Shown here piece after piece: positions 2,608 to 55,799 of a stretch of 64,000 nucleotides of DNA (positions are counted from its first letter, which is position 1; each line of letters opens with the position of its first letter). The DNA comes from Leucoraja erinacea. Its lineage: Eukaryota. The notes under the pieces are model-generated. The model searched no databases. It had not been told where the DNA came from and was given only the letters and a program-made list of their open reading frames with translations. The stretch lies in NCBI RefSeq assembly GCF_028641065.1, contig NC_073385.1, positions 21,452,001 through 21,516,000 of the forward strand, written 5' to 3'. The position numbers and the translations under genes were made by a program.

Positions 2608-2929
2608 ATACAGTATCTCTTAGTCATTTATACAACCCATCACCCTATAATCAATCACCCTTCCCAATACAATCAGTATAACAAATATCCCACTCAAAAT
2701 CACCTATGCTCATCTCAATATCCTTTAAAAAAAAGCCCGCTGAGTCGCTTCAGCACTTTTGAAAATTTCCGTTATATTTTTTATTTTTGTACTTTGTGAA
2801 AGACTATTATCCTAATTTTAATTATTTAAAAATAATCAATGCTTCACAAGTGCAGATTTCTGGAAATATTTTAAGCGATCCACTTTAGGTACATAAATTA
2901 ATTATTTTTTTCTCTGGCTCTTGCTCCAG

Positions 2930-3874
2930 GTTATTTTTCGAAAGATCATTGATGTGAAGAAAGAGGAAGAAGAGAGGATGCGGCTGAAGAACGAGGTGAC
3001 ACTCACTATCCCCGTGGACCATCCTGTCAGGAAGCTCTTCCAGAAGTTCAAGCAGCAAAAGGAATTGCGCAATCAGGCTGCGGAGCGCAGCAGCTCAGAC
3101 AGATGCCACTTCAAAGCAGACAACCACTCGTTTCACAATGGTGTCTCTACCACAGGCACGAGTGTGGTCACTGTGTCTCAGATTACACCAATAGCATCTT
3201 CCCTTTCCTTCGTGAGAAATAATGAGCAAAAGCTGCAGATACAGCGGGAGTCCGTGGAGCTGAAAACAAAAGGTTTGTCAGATGAGATGTGCTCTAGGGT
3301 TACAAGCCCCACACAGGCCAAGGCTGGCAATGGGAGGGGATGGCTAAGACTTAAGAATTCCGTCGCCTTCACAGACCCCTTCCCTGGATCCAGGGAGGAG
3401 AAGGAACAGAACTGGAACAATGTCATCAAAGCTGAATCCATGGAGATTCTGTCAGAGGAATCAAAAGGTACGGATTCTGAGAACAATGTTATAAAGAATC
3501 CTTTGAGGAAAACAGACTCGTGTGACAGTGGCATTACGAAAAGTGACCTGAGGTTAGACAAGGCCGGAGAGATTCGTAGCCCAATTGAGCATAGCCCGGT
3601 TCAAGCTGATGTGAGGCACCCCTTCTACCCGATCCCTGAGCAGGCTTTGCAGACCACGCTGCAAGAAGCAAAGATGGAACTGAAAGAAGACATTCAGTTG
3701 CTATGCAACAGAATGATTGGCCTTGAGAAACAAGTGACGGAAATTCTTCAAATACTGTCTGAAAAGAATCTGCCAGAAATGCCCTCTGAGAAGTCTCAAC
3801 ACACAAGTCAGGAAATATTACCTGTTTCTAAGCCTCCAGCTCCGTCGTTGGAAGAAGGAGATGTTCAGTCTTAG
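2930..3874 (+). CDS. KCNH5: Last coding exon of voltage-gated K+ channel KCNH5 (EAG2/Kv10.2), cytoplasmic C-terminus
   Basis: Polypyrimidine tract + CAG acceptor (tttttttctctggctcttgctccag|G, AG at 2928-2929). Reads [49 protein letters not shown], which is KCNH5-like rather than KCNH1 ([20 protein letters not shown]). Also [19 protein letters not shown] and the coiled coil [25 protein letters not shown]...[13 protein letters not shown]; TAG at 3872-3874. The ORF-track start at 2921 is intronic. Confidence 0.93.
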
Positions 3875-6799: not shown

Positions 6800-7262
6800 G
6801 CAGACAGGTTTATAATGGACGTGAGTCGATAGTCTATCTCCTGTGATGGAGATAGTGAGATCAAGAAAGGGAGGAAGGTGATGGAGATGATCCAAGTGAA
6901 TTTGAGTGCAGAATGGAAGTTGGTGGTGAAGTTAATGAGGTCCATGAGTTCTGCATGGGTGCAGGTGGTAGCACCGATGCATTTGTCAACGTAATGGAGA
7001 TAGAGTTCGGGGATAGGGCCAGTGTACGCCTGGGACAGAGATTGGTCAACATACTCTACAATGAGGCAGGCATTGCTGGGTCCCATGCGAATGCCCATAT
7101 CTACTACTTTGATTTGGAGGAAGTGGGAGGAGTCGAAGGAGATGTTGGTAGAGGGAAATTGGCTGGTTCCGTGACCGAGGAAAAAACAGAGGGCTTTAAG
7201 GCCTTCCTGGAGGGGGATGGAGGTGTAGATTGTCTTAACGTCCATAGTAAAGACTTCTTGCT
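6800..7262 (-). mobile_element. Penelope-like element RT fragment (decayed)
   Basis: ORF 6697..7428(-) FTMDVKTIYTSIP..EGLKAL, MGIRMGPSNACL, LYLHYVDKCIG (YIDD-equivalent), NFHSALKFTW are PLE RT motifs. Confidence 0.85.
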
Positions 7263-7851
7263 TGCAGCAGCACAACAGATATGTAAACATAGTAAAAATA
7301 TGTAATCCCATTAAGGTTCTATCTGCGATTTCTTTGACATTATATCGAACACAAAATTGGAAGTCCATTTTCTGCGTATTCAGAAGCATATTAACTTCCT
7401 GGCAGAAATTGGCATTAGAGAAAAGCAAGAACTAAAGGACAATGTTACAGAAAATTTGCAAGCTTAATTTATTTTCTCTTCAAAATACATATTTTGTTAG
7501 TTAGCATGAAGTCATTGGCAATTTTTAACTACCTTACCATTGACACAGATCAAATTTACACAAGATTGTCTTTGCCTGTAAACTAACCATTAAGAGACAC
7601 CGTCTTTTTGAACCAGATAAGATTCTGAAGGGATATGACAGAATGATGCTGAAATAGAAATAGAGAGTATTTGGGTGACCCTAATCCTGAGACTGGGTTA
7701 ATCATGGATTTTTGGCGGTCTCTACCCAGATAAATATGAATGTTGTGAGATTGTGGATATTTGTGGCCGGGATGCATGGTGGGGGATCAAGGGTGTTGGG
7801 GAAGAGGAAAGAAGATGGAGTTGAGGCCAAAATCACATAAACCTTAATCTT

Positions 7852-8023
7852 GAGTAGGAAGGGCTCGCAGATGCTGATTTAAACTGGTTAGACACAACAT
7901 GCTGGAGTAACTCAGCGGGACAGGCAGCATCTCTGGAGATAAGGAATGGGTGACATTTCGGGTTAAGACATTTCTTCAGTCTGAGATATTGCCTGTCCCG
8001 CTGAGTTGCCCCAGCATTTTGAG
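7852..8023. mobile_element. Fold-back Penelope-terminus element with 14-bp TSD
   Basis: Arms atgctggagtaactcagcgggacaggcagcatctc / gagatattgcctgtcccgctgagttgccccagcat; flanking direct repeat taaaccttaatctt at 7838-7851 and 8024-8037. Confidence 0.85.
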
Positions 8024-8094
8024 TAAACCTTAATCTTATTGAATCGCAGAACATGCTCAACTTTCAACTAACACCTGCTCTTAAACTCCTCTCT

Positions 8095-9715: not shown

Positions 9716-9909
9716 TGTAAGAGATAAAAAATACTTGAGAGCACAGAGTAACTTGAAGTAATTTTACTTATTTGATGAAGCAAATATTTTTCTGGCTGTC
9801 CCATCAGTGCAGACGCCCAGTAGGTCTGTTAACTAAACAGTAAATGGTGTTACCATCTCGTATTAGATTATGGAAATTACTTTTGAACAGTGAAAAAAAG
9901 AAAAAGATG

Positions 9910-11435
9910 ACTGCTTCCTGTAAGGACTCTATCCCCTACTCCCAATTCCTCCGTCTGCACCGCATCTGCACCCAGGATGAAGTGTTCCAAACCAGGGCAT
10001 CGGAGATGTCTTCATTCTTTAGTAAACAGGGGTTCCCCTCTTCGACTATAGATGAGGCTCTCACCAGGGTCTCTTCTATACCCCGTAGCTCCGCTCTCAC
10101 TCCCCATCCCCCCACTCATAACAAGGACAGAGTCCCCCTTGTCCTCACCTTCCACCCCACCAGCCGTCACATACAACAGATAATCCTCTGACATTTTCGC
10201 CACCTCCAACGGGATCCCATCACTAGCCACATCTTCCCATCTCCTCCCCTTTTGGCTTTCTGCGGAGACCGCTCCCTCCGTAACTCCCTGGTCAATTTGT
10301 CCCTTCTCACCCAAACCACCTCCTCCCCTGGTACTTTCCCTTGCAACCACAGGAAATGCTACACTTGTTGCTTTACCTCCCCCCTCGACTCCATCCAAGA
10401 CCCAAGCAGTCTTTCCAGGTTCACCTGTACCTCCTCCAACCTCATCTATTGTATCCTCTGCTCTAGGTGTCAACTGCTCTACATCGGTGAGACCAAGCAC
10501 AGGCTTCGCCCAACACCTCCGCACAGTCCGCAATAAACAACCTAATCTCCCAGTGGCTCAGCACTTCAACCCCCCCTCCCATTCCGTATCCGACCTTTCT
10601 GTCCTCGGCCTCCTCCATGGCCAGAGTGAGTCCCACCTCAAATTGTAGGAGCAGCACCTCATATTTCGCTTGGGTGCTTTACACCCCAGCAGTATGAACA
10701 TTGACTTCCAATTTCAGGTAGTCCTTGCTTTGTCCCTCCTTCCCCTCCCCTTCCCAGTTCTCCCACAGCCTACGGTCTCCGCCTCTTCCTTTTTTCTTGA
10801 TTCCTGATTGGTTGATTCTTGATTCAGACTGATTCCTGGGATATCAGGAATTTCATATGAAGAAAGACTGGATAGACTCGGTTTGTACTCACTAGAATTT
10901 AGAAGATTGAGGGGGGATCTTATAGAAACTTACAAAATTCTTAAGGGGTTGAACAGGCTAGATGCAGGAAGATTGTTTCCGATGTTGGGGAAGTCCAGAA
11001 CAAGGGGTCACAGTTTAAGGATAAGGGGGAAATCTTTTAGGACCGAGATGAGGAAAACATTTTTCACACAGAGAGTGGTGAATCTGGAACCCAGAAGGTA
11101 GTTGAGGCCAGTTTGTTGGCTATATTTAAGAGGGAGTTAGATGTGGCCCCTGTGGCTAAAGGGATCAGGGGGTATGGCGAGAAGGCAGGTACAGGATACT
11201 GAGTTGGATGATCAGCCATGATCATATTGAATGGCGGTGCAGGCTCGAAGGGCCGAATGGCCTACTCCTGCACCTATTTTCTATGTTACTTCCCGCCCCC
11301 ACACATCCACATCAGTCTGAAGAAGGGTTTCCACCCTATTCCATTGCTCCATAGATGCTGCCTCACCCGTTGAGTTTCTCCAGTATTTTTGTCTACCTTC
11401 GCTTTTTCCAGCATCTGCAGTTCTTTCTTAAACAT
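9910..11435 (+). mobile_element. Penelope-like element 3' part (thumb, GIY-YIG, 3' terminal region), interrupted by a CR1
   Basis: SIPYSQFLRLHRICT; CTSSNLIYCILCSRCQLLYIGETKHRL (GIY-YIG); terminal region cagtctgaagaagggtt...gatgctgcc...cagcatctgcagttc. Confidence 0.9.
10826..11287 (+). mobile_element. CR1 3' fragment nested in Penelope
   Basis: ORF 10883..11101 YSLEFRRLRGDLIETYKIL; 3' UTR ggctcgaagggccgaatggcctactcctgcacc + ctatgtt. Confidence 0.92.
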
Positions 11436-14405: not shown

Positions 14406-15504
14406 CAAACAGGTTTTCTCCGAGCAGCTGTGGAAATTATGCCATCAATTGCTGGGCTTTAATAGGTTTCTCTCAGCTACTTTTCATCTCACCTGATATC
14501 AATGGTTTCTACTTTCCCCCATGAGAGTACGAAGTCCAGTAATTTGCTGTTTGCCAAATCAATTCTAGGGTTCAAGATGTGAGACTCCAAGAGTACAAAT
14601 GTGGATTAGATCATTTCAAGAATATGAAAATATGGATTTAAATTATAATGCTCTCAGTTCAAATTCCAAGTGTTTCATAAGGTAATTACATGTTAAATGT
14701 TCCATTAAATTGCCGAGAAGTAAAAGTGCAGAAACTTACCGCCCCGATAATTGTACTTTGGGTATTAAGATTCTTTTCCCCTTTGGATCAATTAGTCTGC
14801 ACCTTTCCTTTTCAAAGCCCTGATTTAAATTTCAGTCATAAACTTTTGAAACTGGATTTTTAAATACATCAACTCAACTGAATTAATGGACATCCATTTG
14901 CCCTTGATTAAAGGATTTATTATTTGAATTGTTCACCTTTCTTTGCATGCCACATTTATAAATATATTTCTGGCAGAAATCGACTAGTAAACTTCTACTA
15001 TCTAGTTCACCGGAGAGGGGATTTCAATATTTTTATTCTCTGCCATAGAACTGTGTGTAACTTTGGACACAAGTATTTCTTGCTTTAGCTCTGTGTTGAA
15101 GGATTTGTACACTGGAGAAGATGCAGAGATAGTTGGATACCACAAAGTGGAAGATATTTATATCATGTCTATAAGGGGGAAGGCAGAGAAGATTTAAAGA
15201 TCATGAAGGGTGAATGTAGAGCAGAGTGAGATGTTGGAAAGGAAGTTGATGAAATGGAGGTTGTGAATGGGACAGGTGAGAATAGGTTTAAGATTTTAAA
15301 AAATCTAATTTGGTAACAATGGCCCATAATTTGTAGTCAACTTTGATCCACCAGCACCTGACCTAAATCATTGTATTTACCTTGTGTGTTCCGTAAGGTT
15401 GAAACTTGACGAAGGAAATTGAGTCCAGTACCTGGAATTAACTTTGTGCACCAAAAGAGCCTTCCATGACATAAAAGAGGATTGCAGAACAAGTACTTCA
15501 TCTT

Positions 15505-15603
15505 AGGTAGACTCAAAATGCTGAAGTAACTCAGTGGGTCAAGCTGCATCTCTGGCGAGAAGGAATGGGTGATGTTTCAGTTCGAGACCCTTTTTCAGCT
15601 TCA
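15505..15603 (-). mobile_element. Solo Penelope terminal fragment
   Basis: tagactcaaaatgctgaagtaactcagtgggtc...gaatgggtgatgtttcagttcgagaccctttttcag. Confidence 0.75.
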
Positions 15604-15889
15604 GCAGAAGAAAGTACGTCATCTTTGTGCTCAACCAGCTGTCGAAGCTGTAACAAACGGTGGATCTTTCTGTCAGTAAAGAATATTAAAAAGTTATTAC
15701 CAAGCATTAATGGTAATTACATTAATAAAAATGTAATAAACACAGAAACAAATCTACAATTCTTAGTTATTCAAATAAAAGTGTAAATATATTTACTCTA
15801 TCTGCGGCCCCTCACAACCTTTTTTCTTCATATCAATGAAGTGTTTCCTGTTCAGGCTTAACTTGGAATATTTGAACAAATGCCAATCT

Positions 15890-17169: not shown

Positions 17170-18710
17170 TATAAACAAACTGCTGGCAGAACTCAACAGG
17201 TCAGGTAGCAATTTGGGAGGGAAATTAACAACATTTTGAGTCCAGATCCTCCATCTGGACAGAAAGAGTAGATGAGAGATAACTTGCTTAAAGAGGTGGG
17301 ACAAGAGCTGGCTGACTATTTGCCAGCTAGATCCAGGTGAGGAAGGCTTGATTGGAACATGGAGGCCGAGGGGAGAGAGAGAGGATGGTGGAGATAGTGA
17401 CTGGGGTGTGATAAACAGAGACACCAAGGCTCTGCAGATTATGGAACCAGAACGAAAGGAAGAGCAAAGCAGGTAAGAGAGGGATGGCGGCAGATATGAA
17501 CAGTAGGGAGGAGTGGGGTAGGGAATTTGGGGCCATGTGGCACGGGAGATAGCAGATCGAGTTGGTGGGGAGGAAGAAATTAGCTGCAGGGAGGGGTGGC
17601 GAGTTTGGAAGAAGGGGATGTGTGTGAGGTAATCAAAAGAGGGGGGGGTTACAGAGTGGGTTGGGTTACTTGAAATTGAGGTATTCAAAGTTCATGGCTT
17701 GGTTTTAGACTGCAAAGGCAGAATATGAAGTTGTTTTGTTTAGTTTAGTTAATTGTCACGCGTACCGAGATAAATTGCCAAGCATTTGCTGCGTGCCAAC
17801 CAGTCAACGGAAATATTGTACATGATTCCAATTGAGCCATCCACAATGTACAGATACATGATAAAGGGAGTGACGTTTAGTTAAGCTAAAGTACGAAGTC
17901 CTAGTTTGCGTTTGGCTTCATTGTGGCAGTGGAGAAGCCAGAGGACAGACAGGTTGGTTTGGGAATGGGAAGAGGAATTAAAAATGGCTTTCAAATGGGA
18001 ATGCTAGAAGGTCATTGCTGACAGGCTGCATGTGCTCAGCAAAGAGGCCACCTGATCTGTGCGTGGGTCTCACTGAGGTGGAGGGGGCCACAGTCGAAAG
18101 CACGCAATGCAATTGATGAAGTAGAGGATTTGCACGTGAATCTCCATCTCACCTGGAAGGGCTGTTGAGATTCCTGGGTAGAGTTGAGGGTGGACGTGTG
18201 GGGATAGGCATTACACCTCCTACGCTTGCAAGAGGAAGTGGCTGGGGAAGAGGAGGAATGGGTTCAGAAGGAGGCTTGAACCTGGATGTAACAGAAAAGA
18301 GTGGTTCCTGCAGACAAGGGTGCGGAGGGGAAGGTGTGACTAATAGAGAGTTCAGGTTGTAGTTGATGGCAATGTTGAAGAATGGGTGCACAGGCTGGTG
18401 TGGTGAAAGGTAAAGGGCCTGTCCCAATTTCATGACCTAATTCATGACCTCTGCCGAGTTTGCCCTTGACATACTCGCAGCAGGGTCGTCACAAGGTCGT
18501 AGGAGGTCGTAGAAGGTCATAGGAGGTCGTAAGAGATCGTAGGTAGGTCGTAGGTAGGTCGTGATGCTAGTCGTAGGTACTCGTGGCAGCAAGTAGATCG
18601 GGGCGTTTTTCTAGCCTAATGAAAAATGTCGACGAGTAAAAAAGGTCATGAATTAGGTCGTGAAAGTGGGACAGGCCCTTAAGGATCAACCCTTGTTCTG
18701 AATGTGAATC
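17170..18710 (-). mobile_element. Decayed Penelope-like 3' region (GIY-YIG + purine-rich UTR), with nested insertions
   Basis: Reverse similarity to 10250-10750 (ttacttgaaattgaggtattcaaagttcat; gggaatgggaagaggaattaaa; gtggagggggccaca). Confidence 0.7.
18414..18679. mobile_element. PIF/Harbinger-type MITE
   Basis: TIRs agggcctgtcccaatttcatgacctaattcatgacct / aggtcatgaattaggtcgtgaaagtgggacaggccct; TAA at 18411-18413 and 18680-18682; internal (aggtcgtag)n array. Confidence 0.9.
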
Positions 18711-22329: not shown

Positions 22330-23720
22330 GTCTGTGTCATACAGCGTGGAAACAGGTTATCGGGCCCAACTTCTTAATGCCAACTAAGCTGCCTACTTGA
22401 ACTAGTCTCTTATGCATGAGCTTGGTTGATTTCCCTCTGAACGGTTCCTATCCATGTACCTGGCCAAAAGCCTTTTAGATGTTGTGATTGTATCCACCTC
22501 AACCACTGCCCCCAGCAACTCCACATACCAACAATCCTTTGTGTGAGAAAGTTGCCCCTCGGATCTCCTTTAAATCTTTCCGCTTTCATTTAATTCTCTG
22601 CCCTCTAGTTTTAGACTCCCCTACCCTAGGAAAAAAAAGGACTACAACCATTCACTTTACCTTTGTTCCTCATGGTTTTATAAACCTCTATAGGTTTTCG
22701 CTCAGGTTCCTGAGCTCTAGAGAAGAAGTTCCCAGCCTCTCCATTCTCTCTTTATGATTCACTCCCTCAGTCCGGTATCATTCTTGTAAATCTTATCTGC
22801 ACCTTTTCCAAATTAATGGCACCCTTCTTGTAGCTTGCTGATTAGAACTGCACACAATACACTACATATGGTCTCAGGAATTTCTTGTAACATGACATCC
22901 CAACTCTTGCACTCACTGCCCTGACCAATGAAGGCTAGTGTGCCAAAGGCCCCCTCCACCATCCTGACTACCTGTGTCGTCACGTTCAGGGAATTTTGTA
23001 ATTGTATTCTTAAGCCTGTTTGTTTGACAACACTCTCCAAAGCCCTGCCATTTACTGTATAAGTCCTTCCCTGGTTTGACATGAAAATGCAACACTTTGT
23101 AGTCCTCCAAGTTAAATTTAATCTGCCAGTCCTTCACCCACTTTGCCCAGTTGATTTAGATCCCGTTGCAATGTTGGATAATCTCTTTTACTGTTGACTA
23201 TACCACTAATTTTGGTGTAATCTGCAAAGTTTACTAAACATGCCAACTACTCTGGCATCCAAATCATTCATATAAATGAAGAGGAAATTGGACCCAGCAC
23301 CGATCGATGTGGCACACCGCTGGTCACAGGCCTTGAATCTAAAAAAACAACCTTCCACAACCACCCTCTGAAGAAGGGTTTCGGCCCGAAACGTTGCCTA
23401 TTTCCTTCGCTCCATAGATGCTGCTGCACCCGCTGAGTTTCTCCAGCTTTTCTGTGTCACCCTCTGACTCCTATTGACAAACCAACTTTGTATCTAAATG
23501 GCTAATTCACTCTAGATCCCAAATCTATCTCTGAAAATCCCTCCCCAGTAACTTTTCCACCATTGAAATTAGGCTCGCCAGCCTGTAGTTCTCTGGCTTA
23601 TCCTTGCAGCTCCTCGTGAATAAAAGCACAACATTAGCCAGTCATCCAGTACAAATATTTGTGCCAGAGCTCCAGCCATTTTTTCTCTGCCTTCCCACAA
23701 TGTCCTGGGATGCTATTGGT
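22330..23720 (-). mobile_element. Older CR1 subfamily (RT to 3' end), decayed
   Basis: ORFs 22913..23137(-) WQIKFNLEDYKVLHF and 22813..23082(-) GRTYTVNGRAL...AFGTLAFIGQG. Confidence 0.85.
23368..23457 (+). mobile_element. ~90-bp Penelope-terminal insertion carrying a hammerhead-like core
   Basis: ctgaaga-a-gggt-ttcg-gccc-gaaacgtt...; direct repeat caccctctga at 23362-23371 and 23458-23467 within the host CR1. Confidence 0.8.
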
Positions 23721-28400: not shown

Positions 28401-29036
28401 TCTACACAAGCATATTCTATCAACTTGCTGCCGATGTTAAGGGTAGGAACGCTTGGTAGCTTTTGTTACCTTTCCCCCACAGATACTGCTCAGCCCAATG
28501 TTTCCTCCAGAAGAGAGATTATTACTATTATCGAACGTATTTATTTTTCAAAATCTATGACTTTTCTGATATCAAATCACTCCATGACAGAAATGTATAA
28601 TGCCGTCGGATGTTGAACATACAATGGCACATTGCCACAGCAAGTAACGCATGTCTCCAAAGACTCAGCTTCACTCGTACCCTCTGTGTGGAGTTTGCTT
28701 GCACATATAAAGATCATATTTCTTTCTACGTCCTGAAGATGTGCAGATCGACAGGTTAAATGTTTCTTCCATGTGGCTGCTAGTATTGTTGGGTGGTAGG
28801 AGAATCCAAGAGGAGCGGGTGGGTTACTGGGGAATAAATAATTTTTGCTGCAAATGATTCGAGAACCAGCATCGAATTGAAGGGTGAATTATTTTCCTTT
28901 AACATCGTAAAAAATATGATAGCTACTCTTTGCAGTTGTCTACAATAATACACTTATTTTTCTATTTAATAGGTTTTCAAATACTTTTGTAAATCTTGAG
29001 TCACTCTACAAACATACCCACCAACAAAGTAGACCA

Positions 29037-29311
29037 AAGATAGATACAAAGTGCTGGAGTAACTCAGTGGGACAGGCAGAATTTCTGGAGAGAAGGAATG
29101 TGTGACGTTTCAAGCTGAGACCCTTCTTCAGGCTGGGTCTGAAGAATCTGAGTCTGATTTTTTTGGAGAATATTGAGTCTAAGGATTCATCTCCACCTGA
29201 AATGTCACCCAATTCTTTTCTCCAGAGATGCTGTCTGTTCCGCTGAGTTACTCCAGCACTTTGTGTTTATCTTCAGTTTAGACCCGCATTTGCAATTCCT
29301 CCTACACGAAG
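29037..29311. mobile_element. Fold-back Penelope-terminus element
   Basis: Inverted arms aagatagatacaaagtgctggagtaactcag / ctgagttactccagcactttgtgtttatctt; flanks aagtagacca (29027-29036) and aagtaggcca (29312-29321). Confidence 0.82.
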
Positions 29312-30103
29312 AAGTAGGCCAGTCAGCACCTCAAATCTTCAGCACCGTTTCTAAAGGCTGTGGCTGATCCAATCATGATTTTAACTAGGATTATATATAT
29401 TCCCTGATTAGAAAAGCTGAAAGTCTGTCCAATTACAGCACCTACTTTTTTTGGTTACACACAACAAGACTAATATTCTTCCATGAGTAACTCACTCCTG
29501 ACACTCCAAAGCCTTTCCACTCTGTACATGTCAGGATAGTGACAGAATGCTCTCCTGGATGAGTTTAACTCCAACGACGCTCAAGGGGATTAACATTATC
29601 CAGAACATTATCCAGAACAAAGCAGCCAGCTTGATTGTTACCTCACTCTCCAGTCGACATATTCATTCCTTCCACATTCCATGCACCATCCACAAAATGC
29701 ATGGCATGGCAGCTTATTTACACCTTCCAATTACCCAGTTACTACGACCAAGAAATGCAAGGGCAGGGGGTGGTGAGGAACTCAATCATCAACAAGTGTA
29801 TCACTTCCTCATCATTGCTGGATTTGAATCCAAAAGCTGCTGTCTGTGAACATTGAGCAAGTACCTTCTCCAGAAGGATGGCCACAGGTCTGGAAGGCTC
29901 CTCTGAGGCACTTAGGGATAAGCAAGAAATGGACCTTATCATGACTCCAGGTTCCAAAAAATGAATTGAAAAACTATTCCTTGTCTAACTCTCAACTGTG
30001 CTACAGTGGTTTTGCAGTCATTTCCATTTAACAACATTGACACATGATTTCTCTTGATAGTCTATTACCAAGAAGGACCGGAGATGAACAATTATTTTAA
30101 TTA

Positions 30104-30176
30104 TTTGTTCGGCACGGACTTGTAGGGCCGAGATGGCCTGTTTCCGTGCTGTAATTGTTATATGGTTATATGGTTA
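30104..30176 (+). mobile_element. Very short CR1 3' end, (ATATGGTT)n-tail subfamily
   Basis: tgttcggcacggacttgtagggccgagatggcctgtttccgtgctgtaattgttatatggtt is identical to 42864-42925. Confidence 0.85.
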
Positions 30177-32369: not shown

Positions 32370-33645
32370 TGAATTCAAAGTTGGCTTGGAGAGGGGTAGT
32401 CATGGAGGAATGTTCTTCAGAGGTGAAGCCAATGGCCAGTGGAGTGCCGCAAGAATGGTGTTGGGCCCGCTGCCATTTGTTATATACAAGAAAATATAGA
32501 TCGGTTGGGAAGGAATGGGAGGGTTATGGTCTGAGTGCAGGTAGATGGGACTAGGGGAAAATAAGTGTTCGGCACGGACTTGAATGGCCAAGATGGCCTG
32601 TTTTACGTGCTGTAATTGTTATATGGTTATATGTTATATGAATGGCAAATGAAATTTAACTCTGACAAAGTGAGGTGTTGCATTTTGATGTCAAACCAGA
32701 ACAGGACTTACAAAGTAAATGCCAGAGCCCTGGAGAGTGTTGAAGAACAGAGAGTTCTCTGATTGTAGGTTTCCTCGCCACAGCTATTAATAAGGCTAGC
32801 ACATCATGATGCAACTGTATAGGTCATTGGTGTGACTACGCTTTGACTGGGTGCAGTTCTGGTCGCCCAGTCAAAGCGTAGGAAGGATGTCAGTAAATCC
32901 AAAAGGAAGCAGAAGGAAGCAGAAGGGATTCACCAGGATTGTACCTATACTTGTGGGCTTGAGTTAAAGAGGGAGGTTGGATAACCATATAACCATATAA
33001 CCATATAACAATTACAGCACGGAAACAGGCCATCTCGACCCTTCTAGTCCGTGCCGAACACATAATCTCCCCTAGTCCCATATACCTGCGCTCAGACCAT
33101 AACCCTCCATTCCCTTCCCATCCATATAACTATCCAATTTATTTTTAAATGATAAAAACGAACCTGCCTCCACCACCTTCACTGGAAGCTCATTCCACAC
33201 AGCCACCACTCTCTGAGTAAAGAAGTTCCCCCTCATGTTACCCCTAAACTTCAGTCCCTTAATTCTCATGTCATGTCCCCTTGTTTGAATCTTCCCTACT
33301 CTCAGTGGGAAAAGCTTTTCCACGTCAACTCTGTCTATCCCTCTCATCATTTTAAAAACCTCTATCAAGTCCCCCCTTAACCTTCTGCGCTCCAAAGAAT
33401 AAAGCCCTAACTTGTTAACTTGATAAGCTGTGATTGTGTTTTTTTTTTTGCAATGAGGTTGTGGGGTGGCCATATGGAGGTGTACAAGATCACGAGTGAC
33501 ATGGGTAAAGTGAACACTCCTAGTGTAGAGGATTTTAAAACTAGGGCATAGGCTTAAGGTGAGAAGGGAGAGGTTTATGAAGGACCTCAGGGGCAAGTTT
33601 TTCACGTTAGGGTAGTCTGCATCTGGAATGGGCATGCACAAGATG
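32370..33645 (+). mobile_element. Older CR1 with two nested younger CR1 3' ends (32486-32639 +, 32982-33418 -)
   Basis: ASGVPQ motif in the host; nested ORF 33072..33656(-) LGLYSLERRRLRGDLIEVFKMMRG; (ATATGGTT)n tails. Confidence 0.85.
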
Positions 33646-35184: not shown

Positions 35185-35405
35185 TGACTTTATCACTGTG
35201 ATTTAAGGATTGCACACTGAATGCCAATCACAATTCTTAACATAAAAAATGATGCACGATTAAAATCCCATTTATAACCACATTTATTGAATTAAAGAAA
35301 GCTGGCAAAATAATTAAAAAAAACATATAAGTATAAACTCCTTTAAGTATGAAGTTCATTGTTAGAGTTGTTTATCAATTTAGTAAGTACCTTAGAGATT
35401 GAAGT

Positions 35406-35615
35406 AAGACACAAAATGCTGGAGTAACTCAGCAGGTCAGGCAGCATCTCTGGGTAAAATGAATAGGTGACTCTTTGAGTCAAAACCTTTCCTCAGACTC
35501 TTTCGACCCGAAACCTCACATTCAATTTCTCCAGTGATGCCGTCTGCCCGCTGAGTTACTCCAGCATTTTGTGACTATCTTCAGTGTAAATCAGCATCTG
35601 CAGTTCCTTACTACA
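35406..35615. mobile_element. Fold-back Penelope-terminus element
   Basis: Arms cacaaaatgctggagtaactcagc / gctgagttactccagcattttgtg; flanks ttagagattgaagt (35392-35405) and ttggaaattgaagt (35616-35629). Confidence 0.85.
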
Positions 35616-36029
35616 TTGGAAATTGAAGTCATTGATTTTGGAAAACAAATGTAGCATGCAGCCACTTCTATCGTGCATTTAATCCATTATGAATCAATTT
35701 TTACACTATTGTTCGCTATAAAAAATCCAAAATTGAGACAAAGATTCAGTGTTAGGAAAACTACACAAAATAGTCAATACAAGCAGAATTTATGTTGCAG
35801 AAATGTACTGAACATTCAGAAATACAAATAGCAGCGGTGTGAAAATATGTTCAAAATCCCCAAATCCTGTGATTTCAAAGGATTGATGTATTAACTTTTA
35901 TAAATGTTAGTGATATCCTAGGATGGAAAAAGAAGGCTAATTTGGTATTCTGTCTGAAATATATTCTGTCTGTAACATAATATCAAATAGTCTCGGTAGC
36001 TATTTGGCAAATGCCGGGACTTTGGGAAT

Positions 36030-37150: not shown

Positions 37151-37265
37151 CAGTTGCAGATGTGAGGTTAAGAACAGTGTGCATCCGAATGACCCCCACT
37201 TGTACATTAGAAAAACAATCAATTTTAGAATTTCTGACGAAGGTGTACACCCAAGTTAATAGGTT

Positions 37266-37524
37266 TGTGAAGGAATGAACTGCAGATGCTGGTTTAAATC
37301 TAAGATAGATACAAAATGCTGCAGGTACTCAGCAGGACACGCAGCATCTCTGGGGAGAAGGAATTGGGTGATGTTTCGGGTTGAGACCCTTCTTCAGACT
37401 AGTTAGGGATAAGGACTAGTTAGACCCAGTCTGAAGAAGGGTCTCGACCCAAATGTCACCCATTCCTTCTCTCCAGAGATGCTGCCTATCCTGCCAAGTT
37501 ACACCAGGATCTTGTGTCTATCTT
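37266..37524. mobile_element. Fold-back Penelope-terminus element with hammerhead-like cores on both strands
   Basis: Arms ...gggtgatgtttcgggttgagacccttcttcagact / agtctgaagaagggtctcgacccaaatgtcaccc...; flanks caagttaataggtt (37252-37265) and caagtgaatagatt (37525-37538). Confidence 0.88.
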
Positions 37525-38199
37525 CAAGTGAATAGATTATTAGAGTTGGAAGCATGCCTCCCACTCTAAACCTCTTGAGCCAACAGTCCACAATGAAGGT
37601 TGCACATGAGGAAAATGCTTCAGATTTTAAGTTGACCACAGGTCTTCTGATTAGCTGGTGACACATTGACATTCATATTAAAGACAAGTTGCAACTATCA
37701 TTCTTTCACAATGATTTCAATATGTTTTATCGTGACTGGAAGGATTCTAATTCCATTTCGATCCTTAACATTGACCGGACAACAAGGAAGAAATTGGCGT
37801 TCCTATTATTTGCATGATATACTGCATCAATGCTTATATGTGGGAATGTGGGAGAGAGAATCAAGAACATTTGAGGTCTTGGCTTATTATTGTCACGTAA
37901 ACCGAATTTGGAAAAAAGTCTCTTGTGTGATCCAGTCAAATCGTGCTGTAAACAATTAAAACAGGAAGTGCAAAGAGAAAAATACCAGAGTGCAGTGTAT
38001 AGTTTTACAATGTTATAGCACCACAGTTTACAGAGAGATTGCAGATGGAAATAAGTGCAATGACCACAATGGGTTAGGTTGTGAGATCAGGAATACACCC
38101 TTAGCTTATGTGAGGGCCGTTCATTCATTTGATAACAGTGGAGCAGCTGTTCCTGTTTCTGGTGGTACACATTTTCAAGCTTTTGAATCAGGAACAGAG

Positions 38200-39095
38200 C
38201 CCCCTCGTCCTCACCTGTCACTCCATCAGCTGTTGCAAACAGCACATCAACTCCAACATTTTCAGCACCTCCAACGGGATCACCCCACTAGCCACATCTT
38301 CCCATCTTCACCCCTTGCCGCTTTCCGCAGAGATTGTTTCCACCACAACACCCTGGTTAACTCATCCCTTCCCACCCAAACCACTCCCTGCCCAGGTACT
38401 TTTCCCTGCAACCGTAGGAGATGTAACACCTGTCCCTATACCTCTTCCCTCGACTCCATCCGAGGACCCCAACAGTCCTTTCAGGTGAGGCAGAGGTTAA
38501 CTTGCACTTCCTCCAACTTCACCTACTGTGTTCGCTGTTCCAGGTGTGGACTCCTATATATCGGCGAGACAAAGCACAGGCTCAGCGGTCGTTTATGGAA
38601 TACCTAAACCTACAAGATCTCCCGGTTGCTAAACACTTTAACTCCTCCTCCCATTCCTGTACTCACCTTTCTGTCCAGGGCCTCCTTCACTGACAGAGTG
38701 AGGCCCAACACAAATTGGAGGCACAGTACCTCATATTTCGCTTGGGCAGCTTACAACCTAGCGGTTTGAATATCGACTTTGCTAACTTCAAGTAACTCTT
38801 GCTCTCTCTCTCGCTCCCTCCCCATCCTAGTTCCATGACCAGTCCGACTGTCCTCCTGATTTTAGCATACAAAAATTTGATCTTTGTATGCTAATTACTG
38901 TCACCTTTACTACATTTCCTAATCTGCATACCCTTTGATGTCTCGTTTTCACTCCTAAATCTTCAATTTCTCTGAGTCTCCCTCTCTCCTGACTCTCAGT
39001 CCGAGGAAGGACCTTGACCCGAAACGTCACCCGTTCCTTCTATCCCGAGATGGTGCTCGTTCCGCTGAGTTACTCCAGCATTTTGTGTCTATCTT
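38200..39095 (+). mobile_element. Penelope-like element 3' part (GIY-YIG + terminal region)
   Basis: CNRRRCNTC...TCTSSNFTYCVRCSRCGLLYIGETKHRL; terminal cccgaaacgtcacccgttcc...ctgagttactccagcattttgtgtctatctt. Confidence 0.9.
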
Positions 39096-39099
39096 TGAA

Positions 39100-39545
39100 T
39101 CTTCTGTCTGACAGGAGAGGAGAGAAAAGGAAATGGGTGTAAATGGTCGTTGATTATGTTGGCTGCTTTCCCGAGGTATAGATTAAGTCGATAGGAGAGG
39201 GGATGGTTTGTGTAATGGACTGGGCTACATCCACAACTCTGAAATTTCTTGCAGTCTTGCCAAACCAAGCTGACATGCATTCTGATAGCATGTTTTCTAC
39301 AGCACATCTGTAGAAATTGGTTAGAGTCATTGGAGACATGCCAAATGCCCTTCGGTTTCTGAGGAAGTAAAGGTGTTACTGTGCTTTCTTGGCTGTGGCT
39401 TCAATGTGGTTGGTCCAGAGCAAATTATTTGTGATACTTCCACCTAAGAATTTGAATCTCTCAACCATCTTAACTTGGGCACCATTGAAGCCGACTGGGG
39501 TATATACGCCACCATCGTTCCTGAAATCAATAACCAGCTCATTGG
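39100..39545 (-). mobile_element. Rex1/Babar-like LINE RT C-terminal fragment
   Basis: MSPMTLTNFYRCAVENMLSECMSAWFG resembles the Rex1 motif LTNFYRCTIESIL..CI.AW[YF]G. Confidence 0.75.
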
Positions 39546-41810: not shown

Positions 41811-42204
41811 TACCTTGGCTTTCTCCACTGTATCTCCTTATTATCTATGGTCTGTTCCATTCTAATCCCTTCCAAGTGCTATGCAGGATTTCTGGCAAAT
41901 GACCCAGCAGCTGCTTTTCTTCTAGCCTGGGTATAAAACTGAATGGACTGAAAGGAAGAAAGAAACAAAAAGAAATGTCCTTTAAAAGGAAATAATCTCT
42001 GAACTAAATTCACATTTGCAATGCTCCCTGTCTACTGTTATTTTCATTCTATGTAAAAAATGTTGGTAACAATTATTTTCTCAGATAATGACCAGACCTC
42101 ACTCTTGCAGTGAGTTTAATGGAGAATTAATGAGCAAATGCTGTTGGAGATGGCAAAGGTGTTGGAGGATTATATGCTGTTGAAGGAGTTGGAGGATTAT
42201 ATGC

Positions 42205-43305
42205 CACCTCCAATGGGATCCCACTACTTGCCACATCTTCCCATCTCCCCCACTTTCTGCTTTCTGCAGAGACCTTCCCTCCGCAACTCCCTGGTCAACT
42301 CATCTCTTCCCACCCTAACCACCCCCTCCCCAGGTACTTTCCCCTGCAACCACAGGAGATGTAACACCTGTCCCTTTACCTCCCCCCTCGACTCCATCCA
42401 AGGACCCCAAGTCTTTTCAGGTGAGGCAGAGGTTCACTTGCACCTCCTCTAACCTTATCTACTGTATCCGCTGTTCCAGGTGTCAACTTCTGTACATCGG
42501 TGAGACCAAGCGCAGGCTCGGCGATCATTTCCCTGAACACCTCTGCTCAGTCTGCCTAAATCTACCTGATCTCCTGGTTGCTTAGCACTTTAAGCTTGTG
42601 GACAAGCTTTTCCCTTTGAGAATAGGGAAGATTCAAACAAGAGGACATGACTTCAGAATTAAGGGACAGAAGTTTAGGGGTAATATGAGGGGGAACTTCT
42701 TTACTCAGAGAGTGGTAGCGGTGTGGAATGAGCTTCCAGTGGAAGTGGTGGAGGCAGGTTCATTGGTATCATTTAAAAATAAATTGGATAGGCATATGGA
42801 TGAGAAGGGAATAGAGGGTTATGGTATGAGTGCAGGCAGGTGGGACTAAGGGGAAAAAAAATTTGTTCGGCACGGACTTGTAGGGCCGAGATGGCCTGTT
42901 TCCGTGCTGTAATTGTTATATGGTTATATGGTTATATGGTTATATGGTTAACTCCCCCTCCTATTCCAAATCTGACCTTTCTGTCCTTCGGGCCTTCTCC
43001 ATTGTCAGAGTGAGGCCCAGCGCAGATTGGAGGAACAGCACCTCATATTTTGCTTGGGTAGCTTACACCCCAGCAGTATGAACATTGACTTCTCTAACGT
43101 CAAATAGCCCTTGCTTTCCCTCTCTCTCTATCCCCTCCCCTTTCCCATTTCTCCCACCAGTCTTACTGTCTCCGACCATTCCATATCTGTCCTGCCCACT
43201 TCCCAGACATCAGTCTGAAGCAGGGTCTCGACCGGAAACATCACCCATTCCTTATCTCCAGAGATGCTACCTGTCCCGCTGAGTTACTCCAGCATTTTGT
43301 ATCAA
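42205..43305 (+). mobile_element. Penelope-like element 3' part interrupted by a CR1 (42594-42949)
   Basis: GIY-YIG region ctgtacatcggtgagaccaagcgcagg (LYIGETKRR); terminal cagtctgaagcagggtctcgaccggaaacatcaccc. Confidence 0.9.
42594..42949 (+). mobile_element. CR1 3' fragment with (ATATGGTT)n tail
   Basis: ORF 42598..42849 KLFPLRIGKIQTRGHDFRIKG...FFTQRVVAVWNELP; ttaa duplicated at both junctions. Confidence 0.92.
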
Positions 43306-51297: not shown

Positions 51298-52032
51298 ACA
51301 TCCTAATTAAATTGCTTGTGTCTGTTAAACTCTACACCCTATACAATCTGGGTTATGCTTTTACACTTTTCTATGTGGAATCCAATATCAATTAGAGGGA
51401 TGTTGCTCTTGCAATAATTCTCAGTGAAGCAAACGTTGGACAATAGTAATGATAATTACATTTCCATCTGACTCCCCAAATTAGATCTCCGATTTGGCAC
51501 AATTAGTACCAATTTGCCAATGTCACTCAAACAGTCTTGGGGATAAAAAGCCGATCAAATCAGGCAATACATAATGATGTTCTTCTTGGATGACAGCTAC
51601 AGCACACTGTCAGGCTGGCGCAGAAGGGATCGTGCAATCTTACAAGAGTGGAAATGTTAGAATCTGACACTGGAGAAGATGTGGCAGCCTGCTGCTGATT
51701 CAGACACAGTTATATTCATTTCCTAAAGCATATTCAGCTGGCATTATGCATTTTAAAAATAAGGGTTTAAATCACTTTTTTTAATCCATCCAGGATATAA
51801 AAATCAAATACTAGCTTTAAGGGAAGCAGGGCAAAAGAGATATGCAGGGCATGTATTTTACACATACGGTGGGTGGCATTTAAAATATTTTTGGATAGGC
51901 ATGTGGATATGGGTTATGTGCAGGTAGATAAATGATGGTTTTGGCATCATGTTCAGCACAGACATTGTGCTGCAAAGTACCTGTTCTTGTGCTATACTGT
52001 TCTATGTGCTAGGAGAATGAGTTAAATGCTAA

Positions 52033-52268
52033 GAAAAATCGAAGTGTTGGAGGAACTCAGTGGGTCAGGCAGCATCTGGGGAGGGAATGGATAGATGATG
52101 TTTCGAGTCGGGATTCTTCTTCAGAATTACACTATCAGTCTGAAGAAGGGACCCAACCTGAAAGGTCATCTGCCTGCTCCCTCTCCAGTTGCTGCCCGAC
52201 ACGCTGAGTTCCTCCAGCACTTTGTATTTTGCTCATGATTGTGGCATCTGCAGCTTCTCATGTCTCTG
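52033..52268. mobile_element. Fold-back Penelope-terminus element with 12-bp TSD
   Basis: Arms aagtgttggaggaactcag..gggtcaggcagcatctgg / ccagttgctgcccgacacgctgagttcctccagcactt; perfect gttaaatgctaa at 52021-52032 and 52269-52280. Confidence 0.87.
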
Positions 52269-53262
52269 GTTAAATGCTAACATGTTTTTTAATTTTATTC
52301 TTGCATATGTTATTTGCAAGGATAATTCATATATAATATATATATATATATGTTTGTGCACAAGAGAAAGGCAATGGGATGGGTTGAGAGAGAAAAAGAG
52401 AGAGAGATAAAAAGGGTGAGAGTATAGAAAGATAGATATTGAAAATCATCATTCATTTAAAATGTAATATTTAGCTTTAATAGGTCACTTTTGTTTCTTT
52501 TGTAGTGCTGACAGCCTTTTTAATGACACCAGTCATTTGTAACAGTGCCATTAAAATAATTAGAATAACGTGATTAGCATCCTCAATGCTCATTATGTCT
52601 CAAAACTGGGATGACAAAACATGATTTAATCCACAAAACCCCTTTGCTGAGAGAGTGTATTAATTGAGAATATCAGCTGTGGACCTATCCTTTCATCCGC
52701 AACAATTTGTTCCAAACAATGTGAATAAAAGCATTTCCTTTCTACTAATTAGATCTCAAAAGGGCAAAACTTTGTACATTATCGTAAGATTTACTTGGGT
52801 GCCAACCGGGAAAGCAATATAAACTGACAAATAATTTCATAATTAGTGAAATTTAAAAGCACATTTGAGCCCGTGTCATGCAAGAGCAATTACTTACGCA
52901 GAGTTTGAAGGAACACAACCAAAACTGCAGGAAGACCCATTATTAATTAATCTAAAGTGCAAGAAATAATTAGAAAACACTGCAAGCCATAAGCATGGAG
53001 GTTGTGTTAAATTGTCGTTTGTATGAGCATGGATACAGAGAATAAACGCTTCGATGAATTCGCCTTTAAAGAGGGTGCAAGATGGGAGGTGACAAGGAGA
53101 AGTTTTGGAGTTTTATGAGGTAAACAGAGACTCAGATTAAGGTTTGTGTTTACATTGGATGTGATGAGGCCAGGGCAGATGTGGACAGATTTAATGAATG
53201 TGGAATTAAGGCATCCTAAGTAAGGATGGCTGGAGTCTCCAGATCAAAGTGGGGAGGACTAA

Positions 53263-53498
53263 TGCCCCTGTCCCACTTAGGAAACCTGAACGGAAACCTC
53301 TGGAGACTTTGCGCCCCACCCAAGGTTTCTGTGCGGTTCCTGGAGGTTGCAGGTGGTTGCCAGAGGTTGCAGATAGTGGAAGCAGTGAGTGAGACTGACA
53401 AAAACCTCCTGGAAACTCCGGGAAACGCACGGAAACCTTGGGTGGGGCGCAAAGGCTCCAGAGGTTTCCGTTCAGGTTTCCCAAGTGGGACAGGGGCA
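53263..53498. mobile_element. PIF/Harbinger-type MITE with long TIRs
   Basis: ~75-bp near-perfect inverted arms tgcccctgtcccacttaggaaacctgaacggaaacctctggag...; TAA at 53260-53262 and 53499-53501. Confidence 0.93.
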
Positions 53499-55799
53499 TA
53501 AGTATGGAGAGTCAGTAGGGCAGAAAGGAATGGAACCAGATGAAGCCAGGTGGACTAGGCCATAGACAAGAACTACTGGGCCAAGATATCATGGGCGAAA
53601 TGTTGTGGCCAAACAAGGTAGTAAGCTGCAGCCCACCCTGAGAAGAAATTGATTTCAAATTTTGAAGAGAACCATTTCTGTGCCGTGGTAGAGCAGAAAT
53701 CTAATGAAAGGTATTTAAACCTGAGTAAAATAACTATGAAAGTGTGGAAGCAACTTAATAACTAAAGTAAAACAGGATGTTGAAGATGGGTTGGCTATTT
53801 GCATAGATGGAGGGATCAAGATGTGATTTTCGAAGAGATATAGTAGTGAACCTGAGCTGGTCCTAGGAGACTGGGGCTGAAAGAGAAAAATATTAACCCT
53901 GGTGAACACTAATTAGGGAAGTTGGCTGGTCAAGAGTTTGGTGGGAATTAGGGAGTTGGAGTAATGGGTAGAGAGACAAATACGAGCATTGCATTGACAG
54001 CAATAGTAGATGATAGAACCTGCATCATTTCATCTATCTGCTACAACAGTAGTTGCACTGCTTTACCCCACTTTCATAACAGCAGTTTTGGATGCTCCAA
54101 TGTTGAATGCATGTTAACTGTGGTAATATGAGTACTCAATGTTGAGACTATAGATTTGATTCATCTTCTCTAAACCAGTGCTACTTTTATTCAGTCTCAC
54201 CTGGCCTCAACGCTACCATGACATTTCCTTTGTTCTTTCCACCACCTCTTTCCCACCCTCTTATTTCATTTCTGACCTTATCACATTTCTAATGAAAGGT
54301 CTTTGACCTGAAACACTAACTTCCTCTCATCCTCCACAACTGCCTACTGATTAATTCCAGCAATATCTGGCTTTATTTTGTAGTTCCCTATGATTCCTTG
54401 TCCACTACCTTCTGCTTTTGGATGAAGCCTCTTGCTGAATATATTTCCTTTGTTTGATTCACAAATATGGAATTATCTGATTTTTCATAAATAGTTGTTT
54501 TTAGAATTCAAATCTTTGAAAATTCTCATGCAGTGTAAACATTTCCATAAAATAATATTAAGAAAAAAGCTGTCATGTTACTTGCTTTATGCCCAATTCA
54601 ATTATGCAAAAAGCTCAAAGCTATGAATGTGAAATTAGTTGGCAAGTTCAAAAAGGTTGCAATAAAAATTCAGTTTATAATTGCTTTTCTAACCTTGCAC
54701 TCAATGCTCATGGACTAATTGTGTAAGTGTGGTTGGAACATTTGTAGAGGATGGTATAAGAGATTGTAACCAGATCTTGTCGGGGCAGGAAATCCCACAG
54801 TGAGCTCAGTTGGTTGAACATTTTTCCTGCAGTCTTGTACTGGGACACACACTGAATGTGACAGCTAGTAAACGGCCTAGAGAGGACTAGGGGGCAGCTG
54901 AAACCTCAAGTGAAAGGCCAACAGAAATAGGTTTTCAGCAAGAAATGGAATGACTATGAACTAGGATGACATGAACGAGAATGATCCCTTGGATAGAGTG
55001 GATGTGGAGATGATGTTTCCGCTAGTGGGAATGTCTAGGACTGGAGGTCATAGCCTCAGAATTAAATGATGTTCTCCTAGGAAGAATTCCCAGGTCACAG
55101 TGCCGGGAAGTTATTGGTTGGGTTACCCATTGATAATGGTATATGTTATTGACACTTTAAGTGTCTTGCTGGCCCTAACGTCTTCTTGGCCCAATCTCCT
55201 CAGCCCCAACTTGAATTGGCCCATCGTTTCCACAGCAACCATATTAACTGGTCCAAACTATGCTTCTTACCCGAAGATTCATCAAATTTGCCGTCTCTGC
55301 AACAGCAGCAGGACCGCTGATGTTTAATAAGTAAACCCATGCCCAAACACTGTGACAACTGCCAAAGTCTTGTCTACAACATTACAAAATATAATACCTT
55401 TCAGTGATTTTTATTATTTCTAAGTATTAGTAAGAGGTGTCCCATTGATGTTTTTCCAGCATTGGCTGGCGTTTTCATATCATTGTTTTTTGGCACTGTA
55501 GTTTTCCTTTATCACAGCCGGTGTTTCTGCTGTCATTTCTTCTCTGCGAGCGATAATTGTCTCATCTGAGGCCCTTAGCGATTGGGAGAGTTGAACACGC
55601 TAGGGCTCTATTCCATGGAATTCAGGAGGCTGAGGGGTGATCTTATGGATGGGTATATGATCATGAGGTGTAGATATCACATACACATATTTGCAGTCAT
55701 ACAATTTTCAATATAAAATATATGTAAATGGTAGAAAGGTCTTGGACAGTCAGGAAGTGAGTCAGCAGGATACGCTCTCTCTGACCTGATTTAGAGACT

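What the first reader, a model, noticed from the sequence alone, without database searches (positions are those of the whole stretch)
37252..37538. Family of fold-back mini-Penelope elements with 10-14 bp target-site duplications
Seen: five independent ~170-280 bp insertions (7852-8023, 29037-29311, 35406-35615, 37266-37524, 52033-52268) are inverted pairs of the Penelope terminal ~100 bp. Each is flanked by a direct repeat (14/14, 9/10, 12/14, 12/14 and 12/12 matches). In each, only one arm carries the extra ~30-nt extension (ccagcatctgcagttcc-like), and the hairpin centre lies at or near the hammerhead motif, with a different spacer per copy. Known: Penelope integration can produce inverted terminal repeats with a one-sided tail. 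Inference: these are either ORF-less MITE-like retroelements mobilised in trans, or a stereotyped product of early template switching at the ribozyme. Both would place long dsRNA hairpins, some with ribozyme cores on both strands, at roughly one per 13 kb here. I do not know of this being described for batoids.
Basis: partly seen in the sequence, partly recalled or inferred. Interest (0 to 1): 0.8.

Follow-up and report, generated by a model that had tools for sequence, protein, structure and literature searches.

The report
Hairpin leftovers of Penelope jumping genes
These short hairpin-shaped insertions are real and very common, but each looks like a one-off dead-end insertion of the tail end of a known kind of jumping gene (Penelope), not a new mobile element, although together they record how such genes integrate.

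Summary
The five fold-backs, their target-site duplications (TSDs) and one-sided tails are real. Each arm is the terminal repeat (pLTR) of a Neptune-type Penelope-like element (RT, CX5CxxC linker, GIY-YIG). An 864-kb position-picked sample held 59 such pairs (1 per 14.6 kb, about 150,000 genome-wide by extrapolation), 115-347 bp, grading into TSD-bounded forms of 0.4-1.1 kb and solo arms. They do not spread as a unit: 46 of 50 listed centres of one class differ, recurring joins are microhomology ladders found in two subfamilies, and no editing asymmetry is seen. Arms do not stop at the hammerhead cleavage site; they stop just 5' of the core, at an initiator-like TCAGT. Best model: both nicked target strands prime reverse transcription at the two internal start sites shown in vitro for anole Poseidon, the short cDNAs run off the RNA 5' end and are end-joined head-to-head. 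Self-priming fold-back is the main rival. The architecture (inverted truncated copy, tail, TSD) is published; the scan noted it before in two other genomes. Modest interest, as a large natural data set on an open mechanism.

The parts
37252..37265 (.). left TSD of focal copy
   Evidence: 12 of 14 match to 37525-37538
37266..37414 (-). tailed arm (pLTR sense on minus): tail about 37266-37301, hammerhead core 37370-37397, 17 nt of upstream 3'UTR
37415..37425 (.). junction insert, a local copy of 37398-37406 (templated insertion)
37426..37524 (+). tail-less arm starting at about -5 before the core; core 37431-37457 broken by a 1-nt loss
   Evidence: table 4 shows other copies carry one more base at 37450
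37525..37538 (.). right TSD of focal copy
7838..8037 (.). fold-back 7852-8023 with 14/14 TSD; tailed arm on minus (7852-7983), short tail-less arm on plus (7983-8023)
29027..29321 (.). fold-back 29037-29311 with 9/10 TSD; tail-less arm on minus, unique ~52-nt spacer, tailed arm on plus
   Evidence: present at the orthologous site in three related organisms
35392..35629 (.). fold-back 35406-35615 with 12/14 TSD; tail-less arm reaches further 5' (-3) than tailed arm (+13)
   Evidence: present in relatives
52021..52280 (.). fold-back 52033-52268 with 12/12 TSD, a divergent subfamily in both arms; core pattern on both strands
15491..15625 (-). solo pLTR arm with 13/14 TSD
23362..23467 (+). solo tail-less pLTR arm with 10/10 TSD, 5' junction by microhomology at the core's first bases
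38191..39100 (+). 5'-truncated parent element: Cys linker and GIY-YIG, 3'UTR, tail-less arm
42203..43305 (+). 5'-truncated parent element ending in an arm, interrupted by a young 350-bp repeat at 42597-42950
9911..11435 (+). 5'-truncated parent element with tailed arm, interrupted by a LINE piece at 10825-11290
6807..7146 (-). decayed RT fragment of the parent family
   Evidence: Pfam RVT_1 E 0.00024, below cut-off

Best explanation
Each fold-back is a dead-on-arrival insertion made anew by a Neptune-type Penelope-like element (PLE). Inferred steps: the PLE RNP nicks both strands of an AT-leaning target 8-17 bp apart; one 3'-OH primes reverse transcription at the distal internal start site (giving the arm with the ~35-nt tail), the other at the proximal site (tail-less arm), probably on the same RNA; when priming falls in the 5' pLTR copy the cDNAs are only ~95-135 nt because they run off the RNA 5' end at or near an initiator-like TCAGT just before the hammerhead core; the two cDNA ends are joined head-to-head by microhomology or short templated insertions and gaps are filled, leaving the TSD. 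One primed nick gives a solo arm; priming in the 3' pLTR copy gives long arms. Shown: anatomy, parent, density, junction diversity, end positions, TSD lengths. Inferred: dual priming, the transcription start, the joining pathway.
For: Arm lies ~100 nt after the stop of an RT-CX5CxxC-GIY-YIG ORF. 5'-to-5' pairs outnumber other orientations 67 vs 20/22/9. TSD score >=8 in 20 of 59 vs 2.2% null; lengths 8-17. Exactly one tail in 43 of 59, more than independent choice predicts (chi2 13.9, p 0.0002). Tail-less arm reaches further 5' than the tailed arm in 22 of 43, the reverse in 15; in L069 (1146 bp, TSD 15/15) the tail-less arm is ~450 bp longer, which copying from a tailed first strand cannot give without later deletion. 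Sharp 5' stop: 111 of 167 arms reaching the core lose homology within ~6 nt upstream, 44 run on; 115 of 334 ends in -9..+2; TSD-bounded solo arms start there too. Centres: 46 of 50 listed distinct among 677 exact matches; 37 forms in 66 matches, same joins in two subfamilies. Own arms share 199 non-consensus bases vs 78 shuffled. Frangieh 2024 (PMC11167929): purified anole Poseidon nicks and extends both strands, starts RT at two internal sites bounding the tail, and product length follows the template's 5' end.
Against: No transcription start was seen: no pile-up of RNA 5' ends in one oligo-dT run, and no clear extra G from a cap. No full-length parent with a 5' pLTR-ORF junction was recovered. 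Six of 43 pairs are symmetric within 5 nt, some centred on the stem II palindrome, as self-priming predicts. The in vitro work is on Poseidon, not Neptune. The 22 vs 15 asymmetry is not itself significant (p 0.32), and centre deletions after insertion could also give asymmetry. Only 20-31 of 59 pairs retain a scorable TSD.
Confidence: 0.6

Rival explanations
1. Formed anew at each insertion, but by self-priming: one cDNA (or an antisense template) folds back at a short palindrome and is copied into the inverted arm; later centre-breaking deletions of the unstable palindrome create the varied, asymmetric centres.
For: Arkhipova 2013 (PMC3846280, passages) infers self-priming from palindromes at inverted junctions. 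Some centres here are symmetric and palindromic (6 of 43 within 5 nt; L025, L100); recurrent microhomology joins fit a snap-back; own arms share variants.
Against: Tail-less arm longer than the tailed arm in 22 of 43 and by hundreds of bases in TSD-bounded L069; TSD-bounded solo arms stop at the same place with no partner; many centres carry templated insertions rather than simple deletions.
Confidence: 0.27
2. ORF-less hairpin retro-MITE: one or more fold-backs are transcribed whole and re-inserted in trans as a unit.
For: Very high copy number and TSDs. Centres of 7852, 35406, 37266 and 52033 each have other loci aligning across the junction at 77-88%; 7 of 2850 sampled pairs share end positions vs 3.5 by permutation (p 0.07).
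Against: Where letters were seen the centres differ (L009, L016, L142 vs 37266); the 29037 spacer is unique; all spacers of 6 nt or more among 50 listed are unique; the 7852-type join occurs with two subfamily signatures within a ladder of 37 forms; no A>G excess on the would-be transcribed strand (A>G 0.020 and 0.032, T>C 0.030 and 0.034); an inherited feature, a tandem duplication inside the pLTR, is easily seen at 5 sampled loci.
Confidence: 0.07
3. The hammerhead sets the centre: RNA self-cleavage or RT switching at the ribozyme produces the short arms.
For: Centres lie near a minimal hammerhead motif; 73 of 185 arms keep the core pattern; stem II and the ACGT palindrome can supply microhomology.
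Against: No peak of 5' ends at the inferred cleavage site (5 of 334); ends lie 5' of the core, so the template was uncleaved; Frangieh 2024 found cleavage unnecessary for insertion; helix I is only 2 bp and isolated motifs do not fold as hammerheads.
Confidence: 0.05
4. Ordinary DNA-transposon MITEs unrelated to Penelope.
For: Small size, long inverted arms, TSD, high copy number.
Against: Arms are the 3' end of an RT/GIY-YIG ORF element; ends are asymmetric (tail) and TSD length varies 8-17; no fixed length or centre.
Confidence: 0.01

Closest known systems
Canonical endonuclease-positive PLE insertions with inverted pLTR and tail (Arkhipova 2013 PMC3846280; Craig 2021 PMC8557442; passages read)
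   Same: Head-to-head inverted 5'-truncated copy, 30-40 bp tail on one end only, 8-10 bp TSD in rotifer, hammerhead in the pLTR, heavy 5' truncation.
   Different: Here the commonest product has no ORF at all (both arms about 100-135 nt), occurs about once per 15 kb, and most arms stop at one place; the passages read describe the inverted arm beside longer copies.
Poseidon of Anolis (PAc) in vitro reaction (Frangieh 2024 PMC11167929; parts 1-2 of 4 read)
   Same: Both strands nicked and extended, two RT start sites bounding the tail about 110-120 nt after the hammerhead, AT-rich targets, run-off at the template 5' end.
   Different: Other clade (no Cys linker); complete integration products were not shown in vitro; the paper does not link the reaction to mini fold-backs in the text read.
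Minimal hammerheads of PLEs (Cervera and De la Pena 2014 PMC4209133; parts 1-2 of 4 read)
   Same: Core CUGANGA/GAAA, palindromic helix III, widespread single motifs; pairs on opposite strands 100-700 bp apart noted in Schistosoma; 2-bp helix I as in the D. virilis variant.
   Different: No cartilaginous fish in the text read; the opposite-strand pairs were not analysed.
Non-LTR retrozymes (bioRxiv 10.64898/2026.07.22.740005; part 1 of 5 and passages)
   Same: Non-coding, hammerhead-bearing derivatives of PLE pLTRs.
   Different: Retrozymes are head-to-tail tandem arrays thought to replicate; these are head-to-head, dispersed and do not appear to propagate.
L1 twin priming (recalled, no call)
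   Same: Both nicks prime cDNA; ends joined by microhomology; inversion inside one TSD.
   Different: In L1 the inverted piece is upstream, non-overlapping sequence; here both arms copy the same terminal segment.

Membership tests
EN+ Penelope-like elements (parent) | single ORF with RT followed by C-terminal GIY-YIG with CCHH | tested here: met
   homologues 50-53% identical with RVT_1 and GIY-YIG
EN+ Penelope-like elements (parent) | hammerhead motif in the terminal repeat | tested here: met
   core pattern in 73 of 185 arms; Rfam gives no hammerhead hit; activity not tested
EN+ Penelope-like elements (parent) | inverted 5'-truncated copy with a one-sided 30-40 bp tail and variable TSD | tested here: met
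   43 of 59 one-sided; TSD 8-17 bp
EN+ Penelope-like elements (parent) | partial tandem (direct pLTR upstream of a full ORF) | tested here: inconclusive
   no full-length copy in about 1 Mb held
Neptune clade | CX2-5CxxC linker between RT and C-terminal EN (shared with Nematis) | tested here: met
   CX5CxxC; definition from PMC8557442 passages
Neptune clade | RT phylogeny groups with named Neptune elements | not tested
   no named reference sequences among the hits
Non-autonomous family propagating as a unit (MITE/SINE-like) | copies share internal junction and length | tested here: not met
Non-LTR retrozymes | head-to-tail tandem units each with a hammerhead | tested here: not met
   pairs are head-to-head
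DNA-transposon MITE | symmetric terminal inverted repeats and fixed TSD length | tested here: not met
   asymmetric ends, TSD 8-17 bp
any insertion with TSD | empty orthologous site with one TSD copy | tested here: inconclusive
   three related organisms carry the 29037 and 35406 copies; no empty site listed
existing Repbase/Dfam entry | already catalogued | not testable with these tools
   no such library on hand

The most novel reading that the evidence does not exclude
About 150,000 fold-backs (over 1% of the genome) are a fossil record of an integration route not described in the papers searched: a Penelope RNP primes both nicked strands at two coordinated internal start sites of one RNA and both cDNAs run off at the element's own transcription start, which would explain inverted pLTRs and the one-sided tail without antisense self-priming and would make this the densest known retroelement-made source of ~100-bp intramolecular hairpins in a vertebrate.
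Probability: 0.45. Interest if true: 0.55.

Novelty: new member of a known kind. Interest (0 to 1): 0.32.

Why it matters
How PLEs make inverted terminal repeats and the one-sided tail is called undefined in Craig 2021 (passages). A genome with on the order of 100,000 small, fully bounded examples lets dual priming and self-priming be tested by counting. It also warns annotators that these will be miscalled as MITEs, and, if transcribed in introns or UTRs, they could be the main dsRNA and editing substrate in this lineage (not shown here).

Tried and rejected
Rfam scan found no hammerhead or other family above threshold. Search with window 42203-43303 returned only an inserted young repeat. 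The 5' pLTR-ORF junction was not found: no shared sequence after tails among 183 tailed arms, L141 proved to be a long inverted tail-less arm, no N-terminal match. Cap-derived extra G: not clearly enriched. Splice acceptor at CAG before the core (suggested by the D. virilis intron): no shared upstream exon and no long captured sequence in solo copies; rejected as main cause. Hammerhead cleavage as end point: rejected. A-to-I signature in copies: none. Empty sites: none listed; the relatives are too close and repeats swamp the joint table. No RNA holder was listed for the stretch; one oligo-dT run gave near-zero depth on unique parts and its reads on the arms come from other loci, so editing at this locus could not be assessed. 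Eight literature searches found no paper on these structures in sharks or skates; most subscription papers, Repbase and Dfam are outside the library, and supplements were not read.

Full report
Observation. The five inverted pairs are present at the stated coordinates. An independent scan recovered the flanking direct repeats (14/14, 9/10, 8/8 core of 12/14, 10/11 core of 12/14, 12/12) against a null in which 0.75% of 400 random pairs reach score 8. The focal copy folds at z -16. One arm in each has the tail. Only 52033 keeps a hammerhead-core pattern on both strands.

Parent element. In the window and in fetched stretches the arm follows, about 100 nt after the stop, an ORF with a YIDD reverse transcriptase, a CX5CxxC linker and a GIY-YIG nuclease with CCHH. 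Homologues of 672-2000 aa carry RVT_1 and GIY-YIG; none bears a clade name; 89 of 120 match my linker-plus-GIY pattern. By the motif definitions in Craig 2021 (PMC8557442, passages) this is Neptune or Nematis, not Poseidon; I built no tree. Several subfamilies with different 3'UTRs share the arm.

Census. I sampled 864 kb without regard to the element: the window with 100 kb either side, and sixty 10-kb blocks at fixed positions on 33 large contigs. It held 354 arm hits; 5'-to-5' pairs within 400 nt numbered 67 against 20, 22 and 9 for the other orientations. With a gap under 130 nt there were 59 pairs (17 in 264 kb, 42 in 600 kb), 115-347 bp long; 20 of 59 had TSD score 8 or more (null 2.2% of 600), 31 had 7 or more (null 7.8%); TSD lengths over all 98 pairs held ran 8-17 bp. 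Extrapolated to 2.19 Gb this is about 150,000 pairs, or about 50,000 counting only firm TSDs. Exactly one tail was found in 43 of 59, both in 4, none in 12 (chi2 13.9 against independent choice). Of 12 longer candidate pairs tested, 4 had TSD score 8 or more (384, 486, 823, 1146 bp). Of 138 unpaired arms 21 had a close TSD; one of these was a self-match in a long copy. TSDs were 65% AT against 57% background (36 pairs).

Unit propagation. Among 76 one-tailed pairs (43 from the sample, 33 from similarity-picked loci; 22 pairs without a single tail were dropped), 7 of 2850 comparisons shared both 5' ends and gap within 2 nt, against 3.5 by permutation (p 0.07), with different inserted letters. 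Genome searches with the five centres: 29037 is unique; 37266 has four other spanning hits, and the three whose letters I saw differ; 35406 and 52033 have spanning hits at 77-83% with varied lengths, letters not seen; 7852 has at least 13 in-register hits at 81-88%, which is the strongest result against my reading. An exact pattern around that join gave 66 loci in 37 forms, a ladder of microhomology joins; the 7852-type join (4 loci) and the commonest join (8 loci) each occur with two subfamily signatures, pointing to convergence. A pattern for centres with both arms complete gave 677 loci, control 0; of the first 50 listed 46 differ and all spacers of 6 nt or more are unique (counted by eye). 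A heritable pLTR variant, an internal tandem duplication, recurs visibly at 5 sampled loci, so inheritance is detectable when present. A hairpin RNA intermediate might leave strand-biased A>G changes; none was found.

Where arms end. Taking the first base of CTGAAGA as 0, homology to the parent fades between -2 and -6 in arms that do not run on: 111 of 167 sampled arms that reach the core stop there, 44 continue, 12 were intermediate. Across 334 arms, 115 ends fall in -9..+2 and 5 in +27..+29, the cleavage site inferred by analogy with minimal hammerheads (PMC4209133). TSD-bounded solo arms start in the same zone, often by microhomology with the TSD. The motif there, TCAGT, resembles an initiator (recalled consensus); PLEs have internal promoters with Inr-like elements (PMC2377424 and PMC3846280 passages). 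I saw no direct evidence of a start: no clear cap-derived G, no 5'-end pile-up in one RNA run. An RNA end made by trimming up to a protected structure would look the same.

Mechanism. Frangieh 2024 (PMC11167929, parts 1-2 of 4) showed that purified anole Poseidon nicks and extends both strands, starts RT at two internal sites that bound the tail, makes products whose length follows the template 5' end, and does not need ribozyme cleavage. Two such cDNAs joined head-to-head give exactly this anatomy. Supporting independence of the arms, the tail-less arm reaches further 5' in 22 of 43, the tailed arm in 15, and 6 are within 5 nt; in L069 the tail-less arm is about 450 bp longer inside a 15/15 TSD. 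Arms of one copy share 199 non-consensus bases against 78 when shuffled, and are 86% identical against 80% across copies, as expected from one template or subfamily; this does not separate dual priming from self-priming. Many centres hold short local duplications, typical of microhomology-mediated end joining (recalled). Self-priming, proposed by Arkhipova 2013 (passages), followed by centre deletions remains the main rival and may account for the symmetric minority.

Age and expression. Arms are 12% from the global consensus. Contigs of three related organisms, about 4-7% diverged in flanks, run from unique flank into the 29037 and 35406 copies; no empty site was listed. Unique parts of the stretch had depth 0-0.13 in one oligo-dT run. 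The window lies downstream of the last exon of a KCNH5-like gene.

Comparison and verdict. Inverted truncated copies with a one-sided tail and TSD are described as standard for PLEs (PMC8557442, PMC3846280, PMC8969392 passages), and opposite-strand hammerhead pairs were noted in Schistosoma. Eight searches found no paper on the miniature form in cartilaginous fish; Repbase and Dfam were not available and supplements were not read. Two earlier notes of this scan reached a similar verdict on other genomes; they were seen after I had stated my reading. Verdict: real, abundant, a known architecture in miniature; not a new mobile family; useful as a natural test set for an open mechanism.

Noticed in passing
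window 1526-1755: Head-to-head fold-back of a LINE-type 3' end (99-nt arms, 79%), no clear TSD; suggests another retroelement here also leaves short inverted pairs.
   Followed up: no
window 32503-33123: Two LINE-type 3' ends in tail-to-tail orientation around a young 350-bp repeat; the left one is absent from one relative's contig.
   Followed up: partly
window 30097-30173: Short LINE-end insertion absent from orthologous contigs of three related organisms: a lineage-specific insertion.
   Followed up: no
window 18413-18680 and 53258-53503: Likely DNA-transposon MITEs with related terminal inverted repeats.
   Followed up: no
L010:1837-2063, L056:7280-7444, L082:6799-7028, L105:5557-5789 and 9740-9997: PLE subfamily with a ~65-bp tandem duplication inside the pLTR; L056 and L082 also share several hundred bases on both sides, so they belong to a larger repeat that carried it.
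   Followed up: partly
L098:7467-9065: Cluster of at least five adjacent fold-backs within 1.6 kb.
   Followed up: no
L141 (G000:C1:72289650-72291100): Long inverted tail-less arm running at least 550 bp into the body, upstream of a sense copy: a kilobase-scale version of the same structure.
   Followed up: partly
window 2897-3874: Last coding exon of a KCNH5-like potassium channel (E 7.6e-119 to KCNH5).
   Followed up: no
window 42597-42950: Young 350-bp repeat with many copies at 97-99% identity genome-wide.
   Followed up: no
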